A stretch of 64,000 nucleotides of DNA from a virus (IMGVR_UViG_3300021479_000015:4223-68222), one strand, 5' to 3'. Positions 50-12,374 are shown, counted from the first letter of the stretch. Translations and numbers: made by a program. The notes: generated from the sequence alone by a model not told the origin.

Positions 50-319
50 CTACCTCTGCCCAAAACCTTGTTGCCGCCGCTTCTCCGCTTCTGCGGAAGC
101 GAGAAGGATGTCGATCTTGGTGCGGATCGTGCTCCAAAACATCGCCAGGTCCGAGTTGGGATCCAGCATCAGCATCTCGATCGGCGGGCTTGTGCCGGGC
201 GGCACGATCACCACCGCTCCGCCGAAGGGGTGGTTGTGGTTGTCCGTCACCCGCTTCGCCATATCCTCGAAGTGCTTGGCGGGATCGTTGGTGCGAGATT
301 CTACAAGGGGTTGGTTCAT
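50..319 (-). CDS. hypothetical phage protein
   Basis: ORF; start moved to ATG 319 (MNQPL) because of the ATGA overlap with the upstream ORF. Confidence 0.6.
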   Translation of the reverse strand: MNQPLVESRTNDPAKHFEDMAKRVTDNHNHPFGGAVVIVPPGTSPPIEMLMLDPNSDLAMFWSTIRTKIDILLASAEAEKRRQQGFGQR

Positions 320-504
320 ATTTTTATCTTCGGCCTTGCAACATATTCGACGCCAATCTGTTGCGGTCCATGCCACCCAAATGTACCAACCTTTGCCGGG
401 TCGTCGGTGTAGACCCACGCAATGCGAACAACGTCGTTTTCCGCATAGTAGCTATCGCCTTCCCGCCAACGACGCACTGGTCCTAAAAAATCATCGTCAA
501 ACAT
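316..504 (-). CDS. small hypothetical protein
   Basis: MFDDDFLG... fills the gap between KTSC and the next ORF with overlapping start/stop. Confidence 0.5.
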   Translation of the reverse strand: MFDDDFLGPVRRWREGDSYYAENDVVRIAWVYTDDPAKVGTFGWHGPQQIGVEYVARPKIKI

Positions 505-709
505 AACGATGTCGGAAGTTCGATTTGATCTCGTCGTGCAACGCCCGTCCCACCGAAGGCGCATTCGCAACCTGATTGGCGGTCTGCTCATCCACCCCCT
601 CGTAGGCGGATACGCGACCGTTTTTCCACGCCACGATCAGCTCCTGCTTGTCGGAATCGTACTCGATCGAATCGACGTGGGAAGAAAAGACGTTTTTTGT
701 CCAACTCAT
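497..709 (-). CDS. KTSC domain protein
   Basis: SSHVDSIEYD..ELIVAWKNGRVSAYEGV..NAPSVGRALHDEIK matches the KTSC pattern. Confidence 0.85.
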   Translation of the reverse strand: MSWTKNVFSSHVDSIEYDSDKQELIVAWKNGRVSAYEGVDEQTANQVANAPSVGRALHDEIKSNFRHRYV

Positions 710-870
710 TTCGCTCTCCTCAACTTAAAAAGCCTGCACCACCCGTGCGGCAGGATCGAGCCTTGCACCGCAGTGCAGCCGGACGGCGACACGAACATGG
801 TGCATTTCTCGCAACGCTGCAGCGCCTTAGGAAAGTTCTGGTAGGACACCTCGGTCTTGGTCTTCTTCAC
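706..870 (-). CDS. HiPIP-like high-potential [4Fe-4S] protein, 54 aa, no signal peptide
   Basis: VSYQNFPKALQRCEKCTMFVSPSGCTAVQGSILPHGWCRLF: YQ, CxxCxxF, C and GxIxPxGWC; GTG at 870 overlaps the upstream TGA. Confidence 0.8.
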   Translation of the reverse strand: MKKTKTEVSYQNFPKALQRCEKCTMFVSPSGCTAVQGSILPHGWCRLFKLRRAK

Positions 871-1196
871 CACACAAACCCTTCCTTCGCGTCGCTCATC
901 ATCTCGTGCAGCATAGGAAGCAGAACGTCGTCCCGATCGGCGATCTCTTCGTCGCTGAAAGCGAGAAAGGGAATTTTCAGGAACGTTCGATCCGGCTTGT
1001 AGTGGGAATTGTCTTGCGGCACCCGCCACAACAGCACCCTGCGCCGATCGCGCTGATGCTCGCCCAGATGCCAGAACTCGCCCCGCATCTCGTTCCCGAA
1101 GGGCGCGCGAATATGCGCGTGCCGGTCAGGATGATCGAAGAAGAACCCCACGTCCTGCTTGTCGATCCAAACCTTGGGGATGTTGACGTTACTCAT
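867..1196 (-). CDS. hypothetical phage protein
   Basis: 109-aa ORF coupled to both neighbours. Confidence 0.7.
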   Translation of the reverse strand: MSNVNIPKVWIDKQDVGFFFDHPDRHAHIRAPFGNEMRGEFWHLGEHQRDRRRVLLWRVPQDNSHYKPDRTFLKIPFLAFSDEEIADRDDVLLPMLHEMMSDAKEGFVW

Positions 1197-1680
1197 CGCT
1201 CAAACGAAGCCCGTGAAGTTGCGTGGCTCGATTTTTTCGCATCCAGTGGTAGACCAAGGAGGCAGCCTCAAGTACATGCTTCGGCACATCAAAAACAGGG
1301 ACGCGAGCAGGTACTGCTATATTGGGAACGTCCATGGCGTCCGAGATAGGCATCACATCAGTCATCGTAAGCGTGCGGAACCCCCCATCTGCAGATACTT
1401 GCTGCTTGATTTTATTCACTGCAGTCTTGAACGCGTTCATATCTTCCTGCTCGCGCTTCCCGCACGCCGCCCTGCCAGCGACCGTAATGCTGCAGTTGAA
1501 GTTGTCCCCGCCGCGCGACTGGAGAAAACCTTTCGCAACAAGGCTCTCGACCGGCTTCTGCCAGTGCCCGATCGCCATCATGGATTCGCCCCGCGATGCA
1601 ATCAGCAGAACCGTCAGCTCCTCCTCGGAAAGGTTCATTTCTGCCTCGTTGTCTACTAACTCGCCCATCTGCCAACCCAT
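1189..1680 (-). CDS. hypothetical phage protein
   Basis: 163-aa ORF within the operon. Confidence 0.6.
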   Translation of the reverse strand: MGWQMGELVDNEAEMNLSEEELTVLLIASRGESMMAIGHWQKPVESLVAKGFLQSRGGDNFNCSITVAGRAACGKREQEDMNAFKTAVNKIKQQVSADGGFRTLTMTDVMPISDAMDVPNIAVPARVPVFDVPKHVLEAASLVYHWMRKNRATQLHGLRLSDE

Positions 1681-1684
1681 GATG

Positions 1685-2509
1685 CTACCTCCAGATGCTC
1701 GCTACGTCGCTCGGTGAAGAAAACAGGACGTTCCAGACGTGATCGACCACGACAGTCTTGCGCGGCGGCACCAGCTCGGGGTAGGCGCCATCCGGGTAGA
1801 TCATGAAGGTATCATACCCTTGCACCCGCATGTAAGCCCGCAAGCTGTCGGGCGAGCACATCATCTGCGCGAGGCCAAACTGGTTCACCTCCGCCACGAC
1901 GAACGGCGGGTGCTGCACCGCCAGCACATTGTTGCCCCCCTGCAGCACGCGCTCCTCTGAACCTTCCACGTCGAGCTTGATCAGTCGCAAGGGGGACGGG
2001 GAGATGCGGTTGAGGGTCGTGGCTGGCATCTTATCTCGAACAGGAGATGTGCACTGCGTGTTAATATTTTCATGCCAGTGTTCAGGAGGCCACAATGCGT
2101 GGCCGCCGCTGCTATCGAAATTTTTATAAAACGTAACTTCCTCCGCCCGAGCGAACAGCGGCTGCTCCACGACAGTCACCATCGACGCTGGAGAAACGTT
2201 AAGCTCAAGATTTTTCTTGAGCTTCGACAAATTATCTATCCCCGGCTCCACCGCCACCACTTCACCTGTTGGTCCCACAAGCTGGGAGGCGAGTAAAGAA
2301 AAGAACCCCACACACGCGCCTGCATCCACCATCTTGTCGCCAGGACGCAGCGCCCGCATCATCACCCACGCCACCTCGGGCTCGTAGCACACCTGCTTGT
2401 TGCAGCAGTCGATGAGGTACTGGTCCGACACGAAGTCGGGATCGAGCAACATCTTGAAGCTGATCTGGCGGCCGTCGGGATGGCGGAGGGAAATTACTTG
2501 CTCGGTCAT
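1685..2509 (-). CDS. FkbM-family SAM-dependent methyltransferase
   Basis: YEPEV, VDAGACVGFFS, VVAVEP and LIKLDVEGSE motifs. Confidence 0.9.
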   Translation of the reverse strand: MTEQVISLRHPDGRQISFKMLLDPDFVSDQYLIDCCNKQVCYEPEVAWVMMRALRPGDKMVDAGACVGFFSLLASQLVGPTGEVVAVEPGIDNLSKLKKNLELNVSPASMVTVVEQPLFARAEEVTFYKNFDSSGGHALWPPEHWHENINTQCTSPVRDKMPATTLNRISPSPLRLIKLDVEGSEERVLQGGNNVLAVQHPPFVVAEVNQFGLAQMMCSPDSLRAYMRVQGYDTFMIYPDGAYPELVPPRKTVVVDHVWNVLFSSPSDVASIWR

Positions 2510-2793
2510 GTACGAATCACCTTATTCACGCTTCCACCGACTTCAAACCACATATTGAACCCTTCCGCGGTCGTCTCAAACATCACCTTTGGTACGCGTT
2601 CCTTCAAAATCAAAAAGCGCTTCGAACTCGCGTTCAAGTATTTCTCAGGGTTCTTGATCTTGACCGGCTTCAAGCCAGTAGCCCTCTTCAAAAACCGCGC
2701 CCAATTCTTCACGCCAGCATATAAGCCCGGTTCGAGTTCAATGCCGTTCGCACGCTGTCTCGCGTTCTGCGCCTGTCGATAACGCTTACCCAT
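2506..2793 (-). CDS. hypothetical basic protein
   Basis: ORF coupled to neighbours; ATG 2793. Confidence 0.5.
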   Translation of the reverse strand: MGKRYRQAQNARQRANGIELEPGLYAGVKNWARFLKRATGLKPVKIKNPEKYLNASSKRFLILKERVPKVMFETTAEGFNMWFEVGGSVNKVIRT

Positions 2794-2929
2794 CACTGCA
2801 CCTCGATCCACCTACACTGCGCCCAAAACCATGTCCAAGACGAACGTGGGATGTGCGAAGGACGCTGGACTACCATGCCGCAAATCGTAACCGAATCGAG
2901 TTGCGGCAGGATATCCGGCCCCGAATAGG

Positions 2930-4360
2930 TCACGACTTTGCGCGCACCTTCATCGCCAGCGCCTGCTCGATCCTTTCGAACACCGGCTCCCACCTTTGGT
3001 TTTTTCCTTGCGGGAAGATGCGATGATTGGGTGTCCATATCCTGTCCTTCTCCGGTTCATGCCCTAGGCGGTAGTCGCGCCCCAAAAATGAGTAAGGTAT
3101 CCAGCACTCCTTACCGATCGTCGCGCAAATATGCCCGAGCGCCGATTCGCACGTGATCACAAGATCGAGATCGCGCAGCAACGACATCGTGTCCACCACG
3201 TCGCGCACATAGCTCGACAAATCGCGGATGAAGGCAGACGCACCAAGATCGTTCATCTCCTTGATCTTCGCCTGATCGATCTGCAGCGAGTAGAGCTGCA
3301 CGCCCTTCACCCGCGCCAGTTCGAAGAAGTGCGTGAGCGGGATCGAGCGATGGCGGTTGATCAGGTTCTGCTCGCTGCCCGCCCATGCGATGCCCACATG
3401 CAGCTTCTGATCCGCTACCTTCCAAGAATTTTTAGACATAGGCCAAGAATCTGAAGATGCGACGCGATATTCGTTAGGCGGAATTTGAATGGGCGGCGCA
3501 ATCCTTATCTGCTCGTCCGTCAGCTTGAGCGCGAAAGGGAGGCTCACGAACGTCGTCCACGCATCCGCCTCGGGGTAGGGGCACTGCACCTGATAGGGGA
3601 TGATGTTGACGTTCTTCAAGAACATGAAAGCGTGCTGGAAGAGGCGTACAAGTTCAGGCTGGACGTAGAGATGCAAGTACTTGGCGGTGCTGGCGGCCAG
3701 AGGCACAAAACGAGCGAACGAGAGCGTATCTCCGAGTCCTTGGTCGGCAACAAGAAAGACAGTCTTGTCGGGCTCTCCCAACCACTTAGGGTAAGGATAG
3801 TGAAGGAAATTGTGTAGGGCGTAAGCATAGCGGCACTCGAACTCACGGAAGCCCTCCACAAACTGGCGGTTGAAGAGAAGCGCGAAAGAGAGCGACATCT
3901 GCCCTGCAAGGTTCTCAGGATCGAGTTGCTTCCCGATACGCGCCGATCCGACCGCTGCCGCAGGCGAACCAAGCTGCCCCTGGATGGTGGAGAGGTTCGT
4001 CCATGCTGCTGCATTCTTGGGGTTGAGCTTGGTCGCTTCCGTCAGTGCCGCGTAAGCAGCATCGATCTCACCAATCTGCGATAGGCCCCACCCGAAATTG
4101 GAGAGAACCTTGGCGCGATCATGCGGGTGCTCGATCTCGCAAGCGAGAGCGCGGCGCCAACAGGCAACCGCCGCGTGAAAGAGCTTGATGTCGTTGTGGT
4201 TATTGCCGTGCTGATACCACGTCAGCCACCATGAAGGGTCGGCGTAGCAGGCGGCCGAAAACAGCTCATACGAACGCTTGGCGTTAAGCGAATCGCTGTT
4301 GTCCTTGCGGACGACATCCGCCTGCTGGTAGAAGCGCGTAGCGGTGGCGCGGTCACCCAT
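2930..4360 (-). CDS. TPR-repeat plus GT-B (GT9-like) glycosyltransferase
   Basis: N-terminal TPRs (AAAWTNLS, LDPEN); DQGLGDTLSFARF, VGIAWAGS, YSLQ, LDLVITCESALGHI. Confidence 0.85.
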   Translation of the reverse strand: MGDRATATRFYQQADVVRKDNSDSLNAKRSYELFSAACYADPSWWLTWYQHGNNHNDIKLFHAAVACWRRALACEIEHPHDRAKVLSNFGWGLSQIGEIDAAYAALTEATKLNPKNAAAWTNLSTIQGQLGSPAAAVGSARIGKQLDPENLAGQMSLSFALLFNRQFVEGFREFECRYAYALHNFLHYPYPKWLGEPDKTVFLVADQGLGDTLSFARFVPLAASTAKYLHLYVQPELVRLFQHAFMFLKNVNIIPYQVQCPYPEADAWTTFVSLPFALKLTDEQIRIAPPIQIPPNEYRVASSDSWPMSKNSWKVADQKLHVGIAWAGSEQNLINRHRSIPLTHFFELARVKGVQLYSLQIDQAKIKEMNDLGASAFIRDLSSYVRDVVDTMSLLRDLDLVITCESALGHICATIGKECWIPYSFLGRDYRLGHEPEKDRIWTPNHRIFPQGKNQRWEPVFERIEQALAMKVRAKS

Positions 4361-4583
4361 CACTCGCCTCAACGCGATGATAAAAATGCTTCTCCGCTTG
4401 CTGAACGCATTCCCTGATTGCAGCCTTTATCTGCCACGCGCCGTAACCATCCACGTCCTTAAATTTTTCAGCTGCTTCTTTCCAAAAGGAAACTGAAGCC
4501 GTCAAGGTAATCGTGGCGTTGATGCTGTCTACACTATCGAGTTTGAACCTAGCAGTGAGGCCGGAAAACTGTTGGTCTTTCAC
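4353..4583 (-). CDS. hypothetical protein
   Basis: 76-aa ORF overlapping both neighbours. Confidence 0.55.
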   Translation of the reverse strand: MKDQQFSGLTARFKLDSVDSINATITLTASVSFWKEAAEKFKDVDGYGAWQIKAAIRECVQQAEKHFYHRVEASDG

Positions 4584-5275
4584 GCTACCTTCTCCTTCAC
4601 CAACGCAAACACCTGCCCGCGATTGAACGGGCGGCCATGGCGGTTATAGACGCCGCGGGAAGTCAGCTCGCGCACGATCTCCTCATACCCCATCCCCTGC
4701 GCCTTGAGGTCGCGCATCTTGCCGATGTTGCGCTGCTCCATAACATTCTCTACCAGGAAGGCGTTCTTGCGGTAGCCGGTCTTGCGGTAACCGTAGGGGA
4801 CCGCGCCCAAGCACCCCCCTGCTTGCCGCTTGGCCTCGCGCCCCGAAGCGGTGCGCTCGTTGATGCGGTCACGCTCGAACTCCGCCACCAAGGCCAGCAT
4901 GGAGAAGAACAGCTTGCTCGCGCCATTCTCCGTCACGACCGTATGTCCCATGTCGGCCAGAACGAGGCCAACCTGACGCGCCTGGAGGTCCTTGAGCATC
5001 TGCAACGCGTCCAACGCCGACCGGAACAAGCGGTCGAGCTTGGCCGCCACAATGATATCTCCCGGCTTCGCCGTTTCCAGCATCACGGCGCCCTGCGGGC
5101 GGTTCTGCAGCGACACCGAGCCCGAGACGGCAGGGTCGGAGTAGAACACGATGTCATACTGATCAACGCCGCGCATCATCGCCACGCCGCGGATCATGCG
5201 CTCCTGCTCCGCGATGGTGGAACCATCCGCCTGGTCGGACGTGGAGCAGCGGGTGTAACCGAACAACATAGTCAA
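4580..5275 (-). CDS. small serine recombinase (resolvase/invertase family)
   Basis: FGYTRCSTSDQ (catalytic Ser), KLDRLFRS, AEFERDRINERT, PYGY. Confidence 0.9.
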   Translation of the reverse strand: MTMLFGYTRCSTSDQADGSTIAEQERMIRGVAMMRGVDQYDIVFYSDPAVSGSVSLQNRPQGAVMLETAKPGDIIVAAKLDRLFRSALDALQMLKDLQARQVGLVLADMGHTVVTENGASKLFFSMLALVAEFERDRINERTASGREAKRQAGGCLGAVPYGYRKTGYRKNAFLVENVMEQRNIGKMRDLKAQGMGYEEIVRELTSRGVYNRHGRPFNRGQVFALVKEKVA

Positions 5276-11176: not shown

Positions 11177-11992
11177 TCATTTCAACGCTGACTTGATGAA
11201 CTGCGCCGCGCATTGCGGGACGATGGCGTTACCGAAGGCGCCGACTTGAGCCACGCGATGGGATAACCCATGAACACCGCCGCCCAGGACGGGTTGATCA
11301 GTCCAGTCGTCCCTGGAAACGCAGCGCGCAACGTCGTGCTCAAATCCGTTCCTCGTTGCGACTCCTGACGCATTCGCGCCGTTCGTTCCGGCTTTGCGCC
11401 TCCACGATAATCGTGCTTGGTCAAAGTGGAAAGCAACCTTCGATGCCGCTTCCACTTCTGCATGCTCGGCATGAACAAATTCATCTTGGCGGTGAGTGTC
11501 GGAAGCAACCCACCACCAGCGTTGCCGTTCGTGCTCAGCTCCGACACTGCAAGCAGGCAATACCGCCGCCGCAAAGGCGTAATCGATTCCTTCCACGTCA
11601 GTACACACGAGGTCGAGCCAAACTTTAGCGCGCGCAACCTGCTCTCCAAGGACGATTGCAGGGCGGCAGACGCTGATGAGGTGGAAATAGTGGGGCCACA
11701 GGTGCCGCTCGTCAGCAAACCCGCGGCGCTTGCCCGCCGCGCTGAAAGGCTGGCAAGGACACGATCCCGTCCATAACGGGAGATCATCAGGGATACTTGC
11801 AAGGCGTAAGGCGCGTGACCAACCGCCGATGCCAGCGAAGAAGTGGCATTGGGTGTAGGCGAGAAGCTCGTTAGGGGCGATGTCGCGGATGTCACGTTCG
11901 TCCACGTCTCCGGGAGCGATAAGCTTAGCAACGATGAGGTTGCGCAGCCACTGCGCGCAGTAGGGGTCGATCTCGTTGTAATAGGCGGGCAT
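11177..11992 (-). CDS. C5 DNA cytosine methyltransferase, large subunit
   Basis: HFFAGIGG (I), GSCPCQPFS (IV), GEQV (VI), HERQR (VIII), GNAIVP (X); no motif IX in this frame. Confidence 0.9.
   Translation of the reverse strand: MPAYYNEIDPYCAQWLRNLIVAKLIAPGDVDERDIRDIAPNELLAYTQCHFFAGIGGWSRALRLASIPDDLPLWTGSCPCQPFSAAGKRRGFADERHLWPHYFHLISVCRPAIVLGEQVARAKVWLDLVCTDVEGIDYAFAAAVLPACSVGAEHERQRWWWVASDTHRQDEFVHAEHAEVEAASKVAFHFDQARLSWRRKAGTNGANASGVATRNGFEHDVARCVSRDDWTDQPVLGGGVHGLSHRVAQVGAFGNAIVPQCAAQFIKSALK
11182..11931 (-). CDS. overprinted C5 methyltransferase small subunit (motif IX); start uncertain
   Basis: alternative frame open through the gene, ending LINPSWAAVFMGYPIAW. Confidence 0.7.
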   Translation of the reverse strand: MLSLSLPETWTNVTSATSPLTSFSPTPNATSSLASAVGHAPYALQVSLMISRYGRDRVLASLSARRASAAGLLTSGTCGPTISTSSASAALQSSLESRLRALKFGSTSCVLTWKESITPLRRRYCLLAVSELSTNGNAGGGLLPTLTAKMNLFMPSMQKWKRHRRLLSTLTKHDYRGGAKPERTARMRQESQRGTDLSTTLRAAFPGTTGLINPSWAAVFMGYPIAWLKSAPSVTPSSRNARRSSSSQR

Positions 11993-11999
11993 TTGAAAG

Positions 12000-12028
12000 A
12001 GCGTAGTGCCAGTGACTACGTTTTTCAA
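12000..12028 (-). promoter_or_regulatory. sigma70-like leaderless promoter with the shared operator
   Basis: TTGAAA-N17-TACGCT, ATG 7 nt downstream; operator 12003-12019. Confidence 0.7.
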
Positions 12029-12374
12029 GCTTTTTATTTTTCCTGGGGGAGCGTGGGGGTTGGCGTACTCAAAAAACAACCGGAGCGCGTCCCGGTCGGT
12101 TGATTAAACCGGCCGAAATAGCCTGAAAACACTTAGGTTCGATCGAGTGCCTGGTAGGTCACATATGGGCTCGAGCGGTTCACGTAAAGTTGATATTAGT
12201 TGATACTACGTGATACGCGACGCTGAATTGCAAAGCAAATCAAGGCGATAAGTAGTTTCGAACTTGTAAGTGTCGAACGTCGTGATGGGCGTTGGGCGCC
12301 TGGCGGGAGGTGTTGGGTGCTCGACGTCGAGCGCGAGCGGCTAAAATTCGCGCGTTCAACGCGACGGAGAAAAC

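What the first reader, a model, noticed from the sequence alone, without database searches (positions are those of the whole stretch)
706..870. Phage-encoded HiPIP-like iron-sulfur protein without an export signal
Seen: a 54-aa ORF, hidden inside a longer mis-started ORF, with YQ..P...CxxCxxF....C..V.GxIxPxGWC. Known: this is the four-Cys layout of short HiPIPs, which in bacteria are Tat-exported periplasmic electron carriers. Here there is no signal peptide and the gene is translationally coupled to a KTSC gene. Inference: a cytoplasmic redox or Fe-S role during infection. I do not know a characterised phage HiPIP.
Basis: partly seen in the sequence, partly recalled or inferred. Interest (0 to 1): 0.7.

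Follow-up and report, generated by a model that had tools for sequence, protein, structure and literature searches.

The report
Phage HiPIP-like iron-sulfur protein, no export signal
A soil phage carries a tiny gene for a protein built like the bacterial high-potential iron-sulfur electron carriers but lacking their export signal, and it belongs to a large, so far unstudied phage family whose members are often fused to proteins of the inside of the phage head.

Summary
Window 706-870 (minus strand) is a real 54-aa gene in a 68-kb phage. It has the PioC/Iro-type HiPIP cysteine layout, a confident HiPIP fold and no signal peptide. Its start and stop codons overlap those of a 109-aa gene of unknown family and a KTSC gene.

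The window protein misses Pfam's HIPIP cut-off (16.8 against 22 bits). It matches the solved HiPIP PioC at E 6.6e-9, and a profile of its family matches PioC at 9.5e-19.

The gene is one of many. Motif scans of IMG/VR gave 151 instances (59 clusters), none with a Tat-like leader, whereas 9 of 10 matches in cellular genomes had one.

Relatives are fused to a portal protein, prohead proteases, DUF2213, a large protein encoded next to a DNA-ejection protein, and domains typical of polyvalent proteins.

My reading is a leaderless [4Fe-4S] module that gets its cluster in the host cytoplasm and probably acts with, or travels in, the phage head. It is not a periplasmic electron shuttle. Metal content and role are untested.

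The KTSC pairing is confined to this phage's lineage. I found no paper on phage HiPIPs, though UniProt auto-labels one homologue. I class it as a new variant of a known kind, of moderate to high interest.

The parts
706..870 (-). 54-aa leaderless HiPIP-like gene (GTG start 870-868, TGA stop 708-706). Predicted cluster ligands C20, C23, C32, C45; shielding aromatics Y10, F26, W44, F48.
   Evidence: ORF and translation; HIPIP, PioC, Iro matches; AF2 pLDDT 95.4, Foldseek HiPIP hits; conserved columns.
871..887 (-). Ribosome-binding region: AAGGAAGGG at 887-879, and an alternative GTG start at 873-871 (55-aa form, as in P0002).
   Evidence: Read; P0002.
867..1196 (-). Upstream 109-aa gene of unknown family (called c3 here). 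Its stop overlaps the HiPIP start (GTGA). It is conserved next to or near the HiPIP gene in 11 other loci.
   Evidence: no Pfam or PHROG hit; orthologues, 29 invariant columns; AF2 pLDDT 59.5, not usable.
497..709 (-). Downstream 70-aa KTSC-domain gene. Its ATG overlaps the HiPIP stop (ATGA).
   Evidence: PF13619, 7.8e-15, 54.8 bits; orthologues.
316..504 (-). Next small ORF (62 aa from the ATG at 504-502), overlapping the end of the KTSC gene by 8 nt. It continues the chain of overlapping genes.
   Evidence: Read. The terminator-like hairpin at 511-492 covers this start, and the number of such sites is not above the shuffles.
1189..1680 (-). 163-aa ORF upstream of c3, overlapping its start by 8 nt. 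No family match.

Best explanation
Window 706-870 (minus strand) is a genuine phage gene for a 54-residue protein homologous to the short PioC/Iro-type high-potential iron-sulfur proteins.

Inferred mechanism:
1. The host's Fe-S assembly machinery builds a cubane [4Fe-4S] cluster on C20, C23, C32 and C45. Y10, F26, W44 and F48 shield it, as in bacterial HiPIPs.
2. There is no Tat leader, so the holoprotein stays in the cytoplasm of the infected cell.
3. The gene is a stand-alone member of a large phage lineage of leaderless HiPIP domains. In other phages this domain is fused to a portal protein, to prohead proteases, to DUF2213, to a large protein encoded beside a DNA-ejection protein, and to domains typical of polyvalent proteins.
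4. The most likely role is therefore a small, air-stable Fe-S module that works at or inside the phage head. It would be assembled with the head or packaged and delivered with the DNA. The cluster would serve as the fold's core and perhaps as a one-electron or redox-sensing centre.
5. It is not a shuttle in a periplasmic electron-transport chain.

Shown: homology, fold, absence of a leader, the gene overlaps, the family distribution and the fusions. Inferred: cluster binding, cytoplasmic location, head association of this stand-alone copy, and any redox function.
For: Homology and fold:
- PioC (6xyv) E 6.6e-9 with the single protein and 9.5e-19 with the family profile.
- NCBIfam Iro E 3.4e-11, aligned to the mature part, profile positions 41-86 of 90.
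- AF2 pLDDT 95.4.
- 18 of 19 Foldseek PDB hits are HiPIPs; the best is 1isu, TM 0.83, rmsd 1.0.

Cluster-site features:
- The Cys spacing x2/x8/x12 equals that of PioC (Cys22/25/34/47; PMC7462912 passages) and Iro (Cys24/27/36/49; PMC10654088 passages).
- There is a Trp at Cys4-1 and an aromatic at Cys4+3, features that the PioC paper calls well conserved among HiPIPs.
- Y10, C20, C23 and C32 are invariant, and C45, W44 and G43 are at least 90% conserved, in 49 leaderless sequences.

Leaderless form as a phage trait:
- 0 of 151 instances in IMG/VR loci have a Tat-like leader.
- 9 of 10 matches to the strict pattern in cellular genomes have one.
- Among 152 proteins classed (150 representatives plus P0002 and P0003): 57 Tat-like, 55 short leaderless, 3 with a hydrophobic N-terminus without RR, 35 other or long, 2 without the motif.
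- The leader state needs 17 changes on the tree, against a mean of 58 for shuffled labels (0 of 500 shuffles as low).

Head association of relatives:
- HiPIP plus Peptidase_S78 in L006, L017 and L033; DUF2213 plus HiPIP in P0016; HiPIP plus InPase in P0086.
- Phage_portal_3 plus InPase plus C-terminal HiPIP in L059; HiPIP plus DUF2213 in L062 and L146.
- In L030, the 817-aa protein ending in HiPIP follows a virion structural protein, a DNA-ejection protein and a phrog_5880 protein.
- BFVD fold hits include phage proteins named prohead protease, XkdF, SppA/ClpP, Zeta toxin domain and ParB.
- PMC5512222 (passages) argues that InPase-bearing polyvalent proteins are packaged and injected.

This phage: the gene lies five ORFs upstream of TerL on the same strand.

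TerL is the commonest PHROG family near stand-alone copies of other lineages: 8 of 107 ORFs, from 28 loci.

Precedents:
- Virion Fe-S: lambda gpL holds a [4Fe-4S] cluster of unknown function (PMC10721106 passages).
- Cytoplasmic HiPIP-like proteins: small subunits of glycyl radical enzymes (PMC13450708 passages).
Against: - The window protein itself is below Pfam's HIPIP cut-off (16.8 against 22 bits) and far below the Iro equivalog cut-off (43 against 100 bits).
- No metal or redox measurement exists. A Cys4 site could bind Zn or nothing.
- This copy is not fused to any virion protein, and packaging of a free 54-aa protein is pure analogy.
- The TerL proximity in other lineages was not tested against a null. 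Eight in 28 loci may be close to what a 9-kb window gives by chance in genomes of 40-60 kb.
- In the jumbo phages S-SRM01 and L016 the gene sits among small ORFs with no annotated or recognised structural gene in the stretch shown.
- No conserved partner gene was found outside the window's lineage.
- The tree rests on 44 columns and FastTree, with only 6 well-supported branches, so a single phage clade is not shown.
- The Tat test is a simple rule (RR motif plus hydrophobicity), not a trained predictor.
Confidence: 0.45

Rival explanations
1. Free cytoplasmic Fe-S redox protein. The stand-alone holoprotein stays soluble in the infected cell. It passes single electrons to or from a host or phage enzyme, or buffers or senses redox state, and is never part of the virion.
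For: It is leaderless. 86 of 151 viral instances are short stand-alone frames. In S-SRM01 and L016 the gene lies among small ORFs with no annotated or recognised structural gene in the stretch shown. All HiPIP cluster-site features are kept.
Against: No redox enzyme was seen among the ORFs scanned near the gene: a protein with TPR repeats, a resolvase, an epimerase and methyltransferases. No recurrent neighbour family was found in 29 other lineages. A high-potential centre would sit reduced in the cytoplasm, and no cytoplasmic partner of HiPIPs is known to me (own knowledge). The many fusions to head proteins are not explained.
Confidence: 0.25
2. A cysteine knuckle without an Fe-S cluster. 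The four Cys bind Zn or only stabilise a small basic domain that binds nucleic acid or a protein, perhaps with the adjacent KTSC protein, which one paper calls DNA-binding.
For: The protein is very basic by my count: 11 K/R against 2 D/E. The leaderless domains carry more positive charge than the Tat forms, mean +1.55 against +0.23 (Mann-Whitney p 0.001). PMC9503650 describes KTSC as DNA-binding (passage). The family profile gives a weak hit to the zinc-ribbon ribosomal protein L32 (E 0.53).
Against: The aromatic shield specific to HiPIP clusters (Y10, F26, W44, F48) is conserved along with the Cys. All significant sequence and fold matches are to [4Fe-4S] HiPIPs. The L32 hit is not significant.
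Confidence: 0.12
3. An auxiliary metabolic gene that feeds the host's periplasmic electron transport (photosynthetic, respiratory or Fe(II)-oxidising), reaching the periplasm by hitch-hiking on a Tat substrate or by another route.
For: The closest characterised relatives, PioC and Iro, are periplasmic carriers in Fe(II) oxidation. Most cellular matches are in Hyphomicrobiales.
Against: There is no leader here or in any of the 151 viral instances. The two overlapping neighbour genes have no hydrophobic N-terminus. A homologue occurs in a Synechococcus phage; as far as I recall, cyanobacteria do not use HiPIPs. Fusion to portal and prohead protease makes export implausible.
Confidence: 0.04

Closest known systems
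PioC of Rhodopseudomonas palustris TIE-1 (PDB 6xyv), the smallest known HiPIP
   Same: The mature length is the same (54 aa). The Cys spacing is identical (x2/x8/x12). There is a Trp before Cys4 and an aromatic at Cys4+3. The alignment shows about 45% identical positions, by my count. E 6.6e-9; profile E 9.5e-19; TM 0.77.
   Different: PioC is a periplasmic carrier in photoferrotrophy. The PioC paper states that bacterial HiPIPs are made in the cytoplasm and exported as holoproteins by Tat (PMC7462912 passages). The phage protein has no leader and no pio genes nearby, is more basic, and carries the Met at Cys2+2 typical of the leaderless forms (47 of 55 leaderless representatives; none among the eight commonest residue pairs listed for the Tat forms, 61 of 65).
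Iro iron oxidase of Acidithiobacillus ferrooxidans (NCBIfam NF041615)
   Same: It is the best NCBIfam match (E 3.4e-11), aligned to the mature domain only. The Cys spacing and aromatic positions are the same.
   Different: The score of 43 bits is far below the 100-bit equivalog cut-off, so it is not an Iro. The first 40 profile positions, where a leader would lie, are not matched.
HiPIP-like small subunits of glycyl radical enzymes (BSS beta/gamma, HPAD gamma, MASS beta/gamma)
   Same: They are small, HiPIP-like [4Fe-4S] subunits of cytoplasmic enzymes. The gamma subunits are thought to act mainly in enzyme solubility rather than as electron shuttles (PMC13450708 passages). They are a precedent for a non-exported HiPIP fold.
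   Different: The fold match is only weak (9pzj_B, rank 19 of 19, E 8.8, probability 0.08). No glycyl radical enzyme turned up among the ORFs scanned.
Lambda gpL and related tail-tip proteins with a [4Fe-4S] cluster
   Same: It is a phage virion protein that carries a four-Cys [4Fe-4S] cluster whose function is still unknown (PMC10721106 passages).
   Different: gpL's iron-binding domain is described as topologically like part of the T5 pb3 baseplate-hub protein, not as a HiPIP. Its cluster is oxygen-sensitive, and it sits in the tail tip rather than with head proteins.
Domains of phage polyvalent proteins (Iyer et al. 2017, PMC5512222)
   Same: Relatives of this domain share polypeptides with InPase, portal, Zeta-toxin, ParB and protease domains. 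This is the architecture that paper describes for proteins packaged and injected with the DNA (passages).
   Different: The main text has no occurrence of HiPIP, iron-sulfur, high-potential, 4Fe-4S or KTSC. Its supplements could not be read. The window's copy is a stand-alone gene.

Membership tests
HiPIP (Pfam PF01355), PioC/Iro subgroup | Four cluster-binding Cys with the subgroup's spacing (C-x2-C-x8-C-x12-C) | tested here: met
   C20, C23, C32 and C45, against PioC Cys22/25/34/47 and Iro Cys24/27/36/49.
HiPIP (Pfam PF01355), PioC/Iro subgroup | Aromatic shield: Tyr ten residues before Cys1, Phe at Cys2+3, Trp or Tyr at Cys4-1, aromatic at Cys4+2 or +3 | tested here: met
   Y10, F26, W44 and F48. 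Y10 is invariant and W44 at least 90% conserved in 49 sequences. The positions are named.
HiPIP (Pfam PF01355), PioC/Iro subgroup | Pfam HIPIP profile score at or above the gathering cut-off (22 bits) | tested here: not met
   16.8 bits, E 0.0087. The homologues in S-SRM01 (23.7 bits) and LR756508 (25.7 bits) pass. Most database relatives carry no precomputed Pfam hit.
HiPIP (Pfam PF01355), PioC/Iro subgroup | Significant sequence similarity to an experimentally solved HiPIP | tested here: met
   PioC E 6.6e-9. Family profile: PioC 9.5e-19, Rhodothermus marinus HiPIP 1.3e-6, 1isu 1.7e-5.
HiPIP (Pfam PF01355), PioC/Iro subgroup | HiPIP fold | tested here: met
   AF2 pLDDT 95.4, pTM 0.73. 18 of 19 Foldseek PDB hits are HiPIPs, with TM up to 0.83. 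This is a prediction, not a solved structure.
HiPIP (Pfam PF01355), PioC/Iro subgroup | Twin-arginine leader and periplasmic location | tested here: not met
   No residues are available for a leader, and the orthologue frames are 61 codons long. 0 of 151 viral instances are Tat-like, against 9 of 10 cellular matches. Location itself was not measured.
HiPIP (Pfam PF01355), PioC/Iro subgroup | [4Fe-4S]3+/2+ couple at positive potential | not testable with these tools
   This needs purified protein, with UV-vis, EPR and voltammetry.
Iro iron oxidase equivalog (NCBIfam NF041615) | Score at or above the 100-bit equivalog cut-off | tested here: not met
   43.3 bits.
Virion-packaged or polyvalent-protein domain | The domain lies in one polypeptide with virion or effector domains | tested here: not met
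   The window's copy is a stand-alone 54-aa gene. The feature is met only by relatives: Peptidase_S78, DUF2213, InPase, His_Phos_1 and Phage_portal_3 fusions and BFVD hits.
Virion-packaged or polyvalent-protein domain | Physical presence in proheads or virions | not testable with these tools
   This needs virion proteomics or cryo-EM.
HiPIP-like small subunit of a glycyl radical enzyme | A partner glycyl radical enzyme encoded alongside | tested here: not met
   No such family was found among the ORFs scanned, but not every ORF of the window was scanned. The fold match to 9pzj_B is not significant.

The most novel reading that the evidence does not exclude
Tailed phages of many lineages carry a dedicated, air-stable [4Fe-4S] HiPIP domain inside the capsid. 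It is either free or tethered to the portal, the prohead protease or ejection proteins, and is delivered into the cell with the DNA. There it would act as a redox effector or sensor in the first minutes of infection. This would be a class of virion-borne iron-sulfur proteins not described so far, and a new job for a fold known until now almost only as a periplasmic electron carrier.
Probability: 0.2. Interest if true: 0.8.

Novelty: new variant of a known kind. Interest (0 to 1): 0.6.

Why it matters
HiPIPs are textbook periplasmic electron carriers that are exported folded by the Tat system.

This work finds a large and mostly unannotated set of phage genes that keep the cluster-binding core but have dropped the export signal. 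Several have been joined to head-assembly and ejection proteins.

If the cluster is confirmed, this would be a new biological setting for the fold. Besides lambda gpL, it would be a further case of an iron-sulfur centre tied to a phage particle.

It would give a defined, very small protein (54 aa) for testing what redox chemistry, if any, a phage needs during head assembly or DNA entry.

It also shows that Pfam's HIPIP model misses most of these proteins. Of 120 database relatives, 14 carried a precomputed PF01355 hit, and every name a source gave was 'hypothetical protein' or uninformative.

Tried and rejected
- PHROGs gave no family for the protein.
- The search for homologous proteins with the single protein found only the protein itself.
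- The search for related loci with alignment A1 failed for lack of a conserved stretch. I used codon-level motif scans instead.
- Complex prediction on c3 + KTSC + HiPIP + a 4Fe-4S cluster returned 'no answer' (score 0.00). This is no evidence either way.
- The AF2 model of the 109-aa neighbour had pLDDT 59.5, too poor for a fold search. The protein atlas gave no usable hit for it.
- The look-up of sequencing runs listed only one soil DNA run, possibly the source, and no RNA holder.
- The promoter and terminator scan gave no promoter-like site and 4 terminator-like sites, against 2.9 expected. One lies inside the gene and one covers the next gene's start, so I treat neither as a terminator.
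- The 107-aa reading with an R-rich N-terminus was rejected as an off-frame overlap of the conserved 109-aa gene.
- The idea of a conserved HiPIP-KTSC operon across phages was rejected. There were 0 KTSC hits among 141 neighbour frames in 29 other lineages. My own KTSC HMM hit 13 of 151 loci: 10 of the window's lineage and three (L101, L114, L129) where KTSC lies 2.4-3 kb away.
- The 480-aa protein with TPR repeats is shared by 15 loci. I take this as shared ancestry, not as a partner.

Full report
**What is at the coordinates**

The minus strand of window 706-870 encodes VKKTKTEVSYQNFPKALQRCEKCTMFVSPSGCTAVQGSILPHGWCRLFKLRRAK, 54 aa with GTG read as Met.

Read directly:
- The GTG at 870-868 overlaps the TGA of the upstream 109-aa ORF (GTGA).
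- The stop overlaps the ATG of the downstream 70-aa gene (ATGA).
- AAGGAAGGG lies 8 nt before the start.
- The chain of overlaps continues on both sides. The 163-aa ORF overlaps the 109-aa ORF by 8 nt, and the KTSC gene overlaps a 62-aa ORF starting at 504 by 8 nt.

The downstream gene is a KTSC-domain protein (Pfam 7.8e-15).

The long reading is not credible. Its extra 53 codons lie out of frame over the 109-aa gene, which is conserved in 11 other loci with 29 invariant columns. In three orthologous loci the whole open frame is 61 codons, with an ATG at the matching place.

**The replicon**

The window is bases 4223-68222 of a 68,222-bp IMG/VR virus record that CheckV rates complete. It encodes:
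- primase, DNA polymerase and helicase;
- a large terminase and a major head protein;
- a resolvase and a C5 DNA methylase;
- an FkbM methyltransferase and a nucleotide-sugar epimerase.

No tRNA gene was found.

On the minus strand the order is: FkbM methyltransferase, 163 aa, 109 aa, HiPIP-like, KTSC, 62 aa, 122 aa, 190 aa, then TerL, two small genes and a long ORF that runs off the record's end. The gene therefore sits five ORFs upstream of the packaging genes.

**Is it a HiPIP?**

By sequence and predicted fold it is.
- Pfam HIPIP matches at E 0.0087, but at 16.8 bits it is below the 22-bit cut-off.
- NCBIfam's Iro iron oxidase matches at 3.4e-11. The match covers only profile positions 41-86 of 90, the mature part, and is far below the equivalog cut-off.
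- The best solved relative is PioC, the 54-residue HiPIP of Rhodopseudomonas palustris: E 6.6e-9, rising to 9.5e-19 with a profile of 49 leaderless relatives. Three other HiPIPs follow at 1.3e-6, 1.7e-5 and 0.004.
- AlphaFold2 on that alignment gives pLDDT 95.4.
- 18 of the 19 Foldseek hits in the PDB are HiPIPs, led by 1isu (TM 0.83, rmsd 1.0) and PioC (TM 0.77).

The Cys spacing is exactly that of PioC and Iro. The aromatic residues that the literature ties to cluster shielding are all present (passages of PMC7462912, and PMC10654088). Y10, C20, C23 and C32 are invariant across the 49 sequences.

What a classical HiPIP has and this protein lacks is the twin-arginine leader. [quoted passage not shown]

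**The family**

An exhaustive phmmer search found 1006 representative proteins at E<=1e-3. I classed 152 proteins by a simple rule: the best 150 plus P0002 and P0003.

| Class | Count |
|---|---|
| RR motif plus hydrophobic N-terminus (Tat-like) | 57 |
| Short and leaderless | 55 |
| Hydrophobic N-terminus without RR | 3 |
| Longer or unclear | 35 |
| No motif | 2 |

A strict codon-level motif scan found 42 IMG/VR contigs.

Together they give 151 instances, 120 distinct domain strings and 59 clusters at 80% core identity. None has a Tat-like upstream region. By frame they divide as follows:
- 86 are short frames.
- 30 sit at the N-terminus of longer frames.
- 21 are internal.
- 14 are at the C-terminus. 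Some of these long frames may be off-frame artefacts.

The strict motif hit only 10 contigs among the 185,579 species genomes. Nine of them, mostly Hyphomicrobiales, have SRR-type leaders. The tenth is a MAG contig that carries the same three-gene module as the window.

On a FastTree of 198 domains (44 columns, few supported branches) the leader state needs 17 changes, against 58 for shuffled labels (0 of 500 as low). The leaderless forms cluster, but a single origin is not shown.

A Met two residues after the second Cys marks 47 of 55 leaderless representatives. It is absent from the eight commonest residue pairs listed for the Tat forms, which cover 61 of 65. The nine leader-bearing cellular matches to the strict motif do carry it, because the motif requires it.

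Among cultured phages only Synechococcus phage S-SRM01 has a homologue, annotated as a hypothetical protein. A 484-kb uncultured phage has another. Both pass Pfam's cut-off. UniProt's automatic name for the S-SRM01 protein already mentions the HiPIP family profile.

**Architectures**

Relatives are fused as follows.

| Architecture | Where |
|---|---|
| N-terminal to Caudovirus prohead protease (Peptidase_S78), three sequence types | Pfam on L006, L017, L033; like frames in L018, L020, L021, L023, L028, L037 by sequence |
| With DUF2213 | P0016, L062, L146 |
| After a portal and an InPase domain | L059 |
| With InPase alone | P0086 |
| C-terminal to a histidine phosphatase | L013 |
| C-terminal end of proteins of 800-1600 aa | L007, L012, L030 |

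Further details:
- In L013 the fusion gene lies after a portal-like gene and a protease-like gene.
- In L030 the large protein follows a virion structural protein, a DNA-ejection protein and a phrog_5880 protein.
- BFVD holds 17 phage proteins with this fold at probability at least 0.99. Their names include Zeta toxin domain, ParB/Sulfiredoxin, XkdF, SppA/ClpP, HAD-like, helicase and prohead protease.

These partners are those of the polyvalent proteins of Iyer et al. That paper argues that InPase-bearing proteins are packaged and injected (PMC5512222, passages). Its main text never mentions HiPIP, iron-sulfur or KTSC.

**Neighbours**

The 109-aa gene, the HiPIP-like gene and the KTSC gene occur together in the window, in 10 IMG/VR loci and in the MAG contig, where the order is rearranged. 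These loci also share the TerL and the 480-aa protein with TPR repeats, so they are one lineage.

In 29 other stand-alone lineages, none of 141 same-strand frames within 450 nt is KTSC, and no Pfam family recurs. My own KTSC HMM also finds the domain 2.4-3 kb away in one fused lineage.

Among 107 ORFs of at least 200 aa within 4.5 kb of stand-alone copies in 28 loci, TerL is the commonest PHROG family (8), followed by a family labelled head-tail adaptor (phrog_332, 5) and two portal families (2 each). This is suggestive only, because I ran no null model.

No redox enzyme was found near the gene.

**Reading**

The firm part is that this is a leaderless phage homologue of PioC/Iro-type HiPIPs with every cluster-site feature kept.

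The inferred part has three steps:
- It binds a [4Fe-4S] cluster in the cytoplasm.
- It stays there or enters the head.
- It works in connection with head assembly or DNA delivery.

Two precedents make this less odd. Small HiPIP-like subunits of cytoplasmic glycyl radical enzymes carry [4Fe-4S] clusters, and the gamma subunits are thought to act mainly in enzyme solubility (PMC13450708 passages). Lambda's tail-tip protein gpL carries a [4Fe-4S] cluster whose function is still unknown (PMC10721106 passages).

A role in periplasmic electron transport is unlikely. There is no leader, one carrier infects Synechococcus, and the fused partners are head proteins.

The rivals remain open: a free cytoplasmic redox protein, or a basic Cys4 knuckle without an Fe-S cluster.

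**Literature**

Four searches found no paper whose title or abstract start concerns a phage-encoded HiPIP:
- HiPIP + phage: 20 papers.
- 'high potential iron-sulfur protein' + bacteriophage: 4 papers.
- The same phrase + viral + auxiliary metabolic: 0 papers.
- 4Fe-4S + virion + phage + ejection: 6 papers.

Subscription journals are largely outside that library.

**Verdict**

The most interesting result lies outside the given coordinates: the gene belongs to a broad phage family of leaderless HiPIP domains tied to head and ejection proteins. I class it as a new variant of a known kind, with interest 0.6.

Noticed in passing
window 316-2509, minus strand: The ORFs from the 163-aa ORF to the 62-aa ORF are chained by overlapping start and stop codons (8, 4, 4 and 8 nt). 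The FkbM methyltransferase gene ends a few bases before the 163-aa ORF starts. This looks like one tightly coupled operon running toward the terminase gene.
   Followed up: partly
window 2930-4372, minus strand: A 480-aa protein with weak TPR matches (all below Pfam cut-offs) is shared by 15 HiPIP-bearing loci. These include both the stand-alone lineage and the lineages where HiPIP is fused to the prohead protease. I read this as shared ancestry; its function is unknown.
   Followed up: partly
L050 (MAG contig titled Candidatus Acidiferrales), 1152-3861: This is the only leaderless match in cellular genomes. It carries the same 109-aa, HiPIP and KTSC genes as the window, in a different order. 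It may be a prophage or a binned phage contig, and could hint at the host of this phage lineage.
   Followed up: no
L065-L067, L076, L082, L084, L090, L094, L132, L133, L136, L137, L143, L154: A subfamily with the Cys core right at the N-terminus (Met about 9 residues before Cys1, and Arg instead of the conserved Tyr). It is followed by 200-820 further residues that begin with a Gly-rich stretch. The one member scanned, L076, had no Pfam match. It may be a truncated or re-purposed version of the domain.
   Followed up: partly
L083, L117, L093, L128, L122 (IMG/VR): Very long frames (about 1000-2100 aa) carry the domain internally. L083 also has a weak Amidoligase_2 match. They look like polyvalent proteins.
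   Followed up: partly
window 4580-5275 and 11177-12079, minus strand: The phage encodes a serine recombinase (Resolvase, 2.3e-32) and a C5 cytosine DNA methylase (2.2e-16).
   Followed up: no
L101, L114, L129 (IMG/VR): A KTSC-domain ORF lies 2.4-3 kb from a gene whose product starts with the HiPIP-like domain (a frame of about 765 aa with no Pfam match), in a lineage unrelated to the window's.
   Followed up: partly
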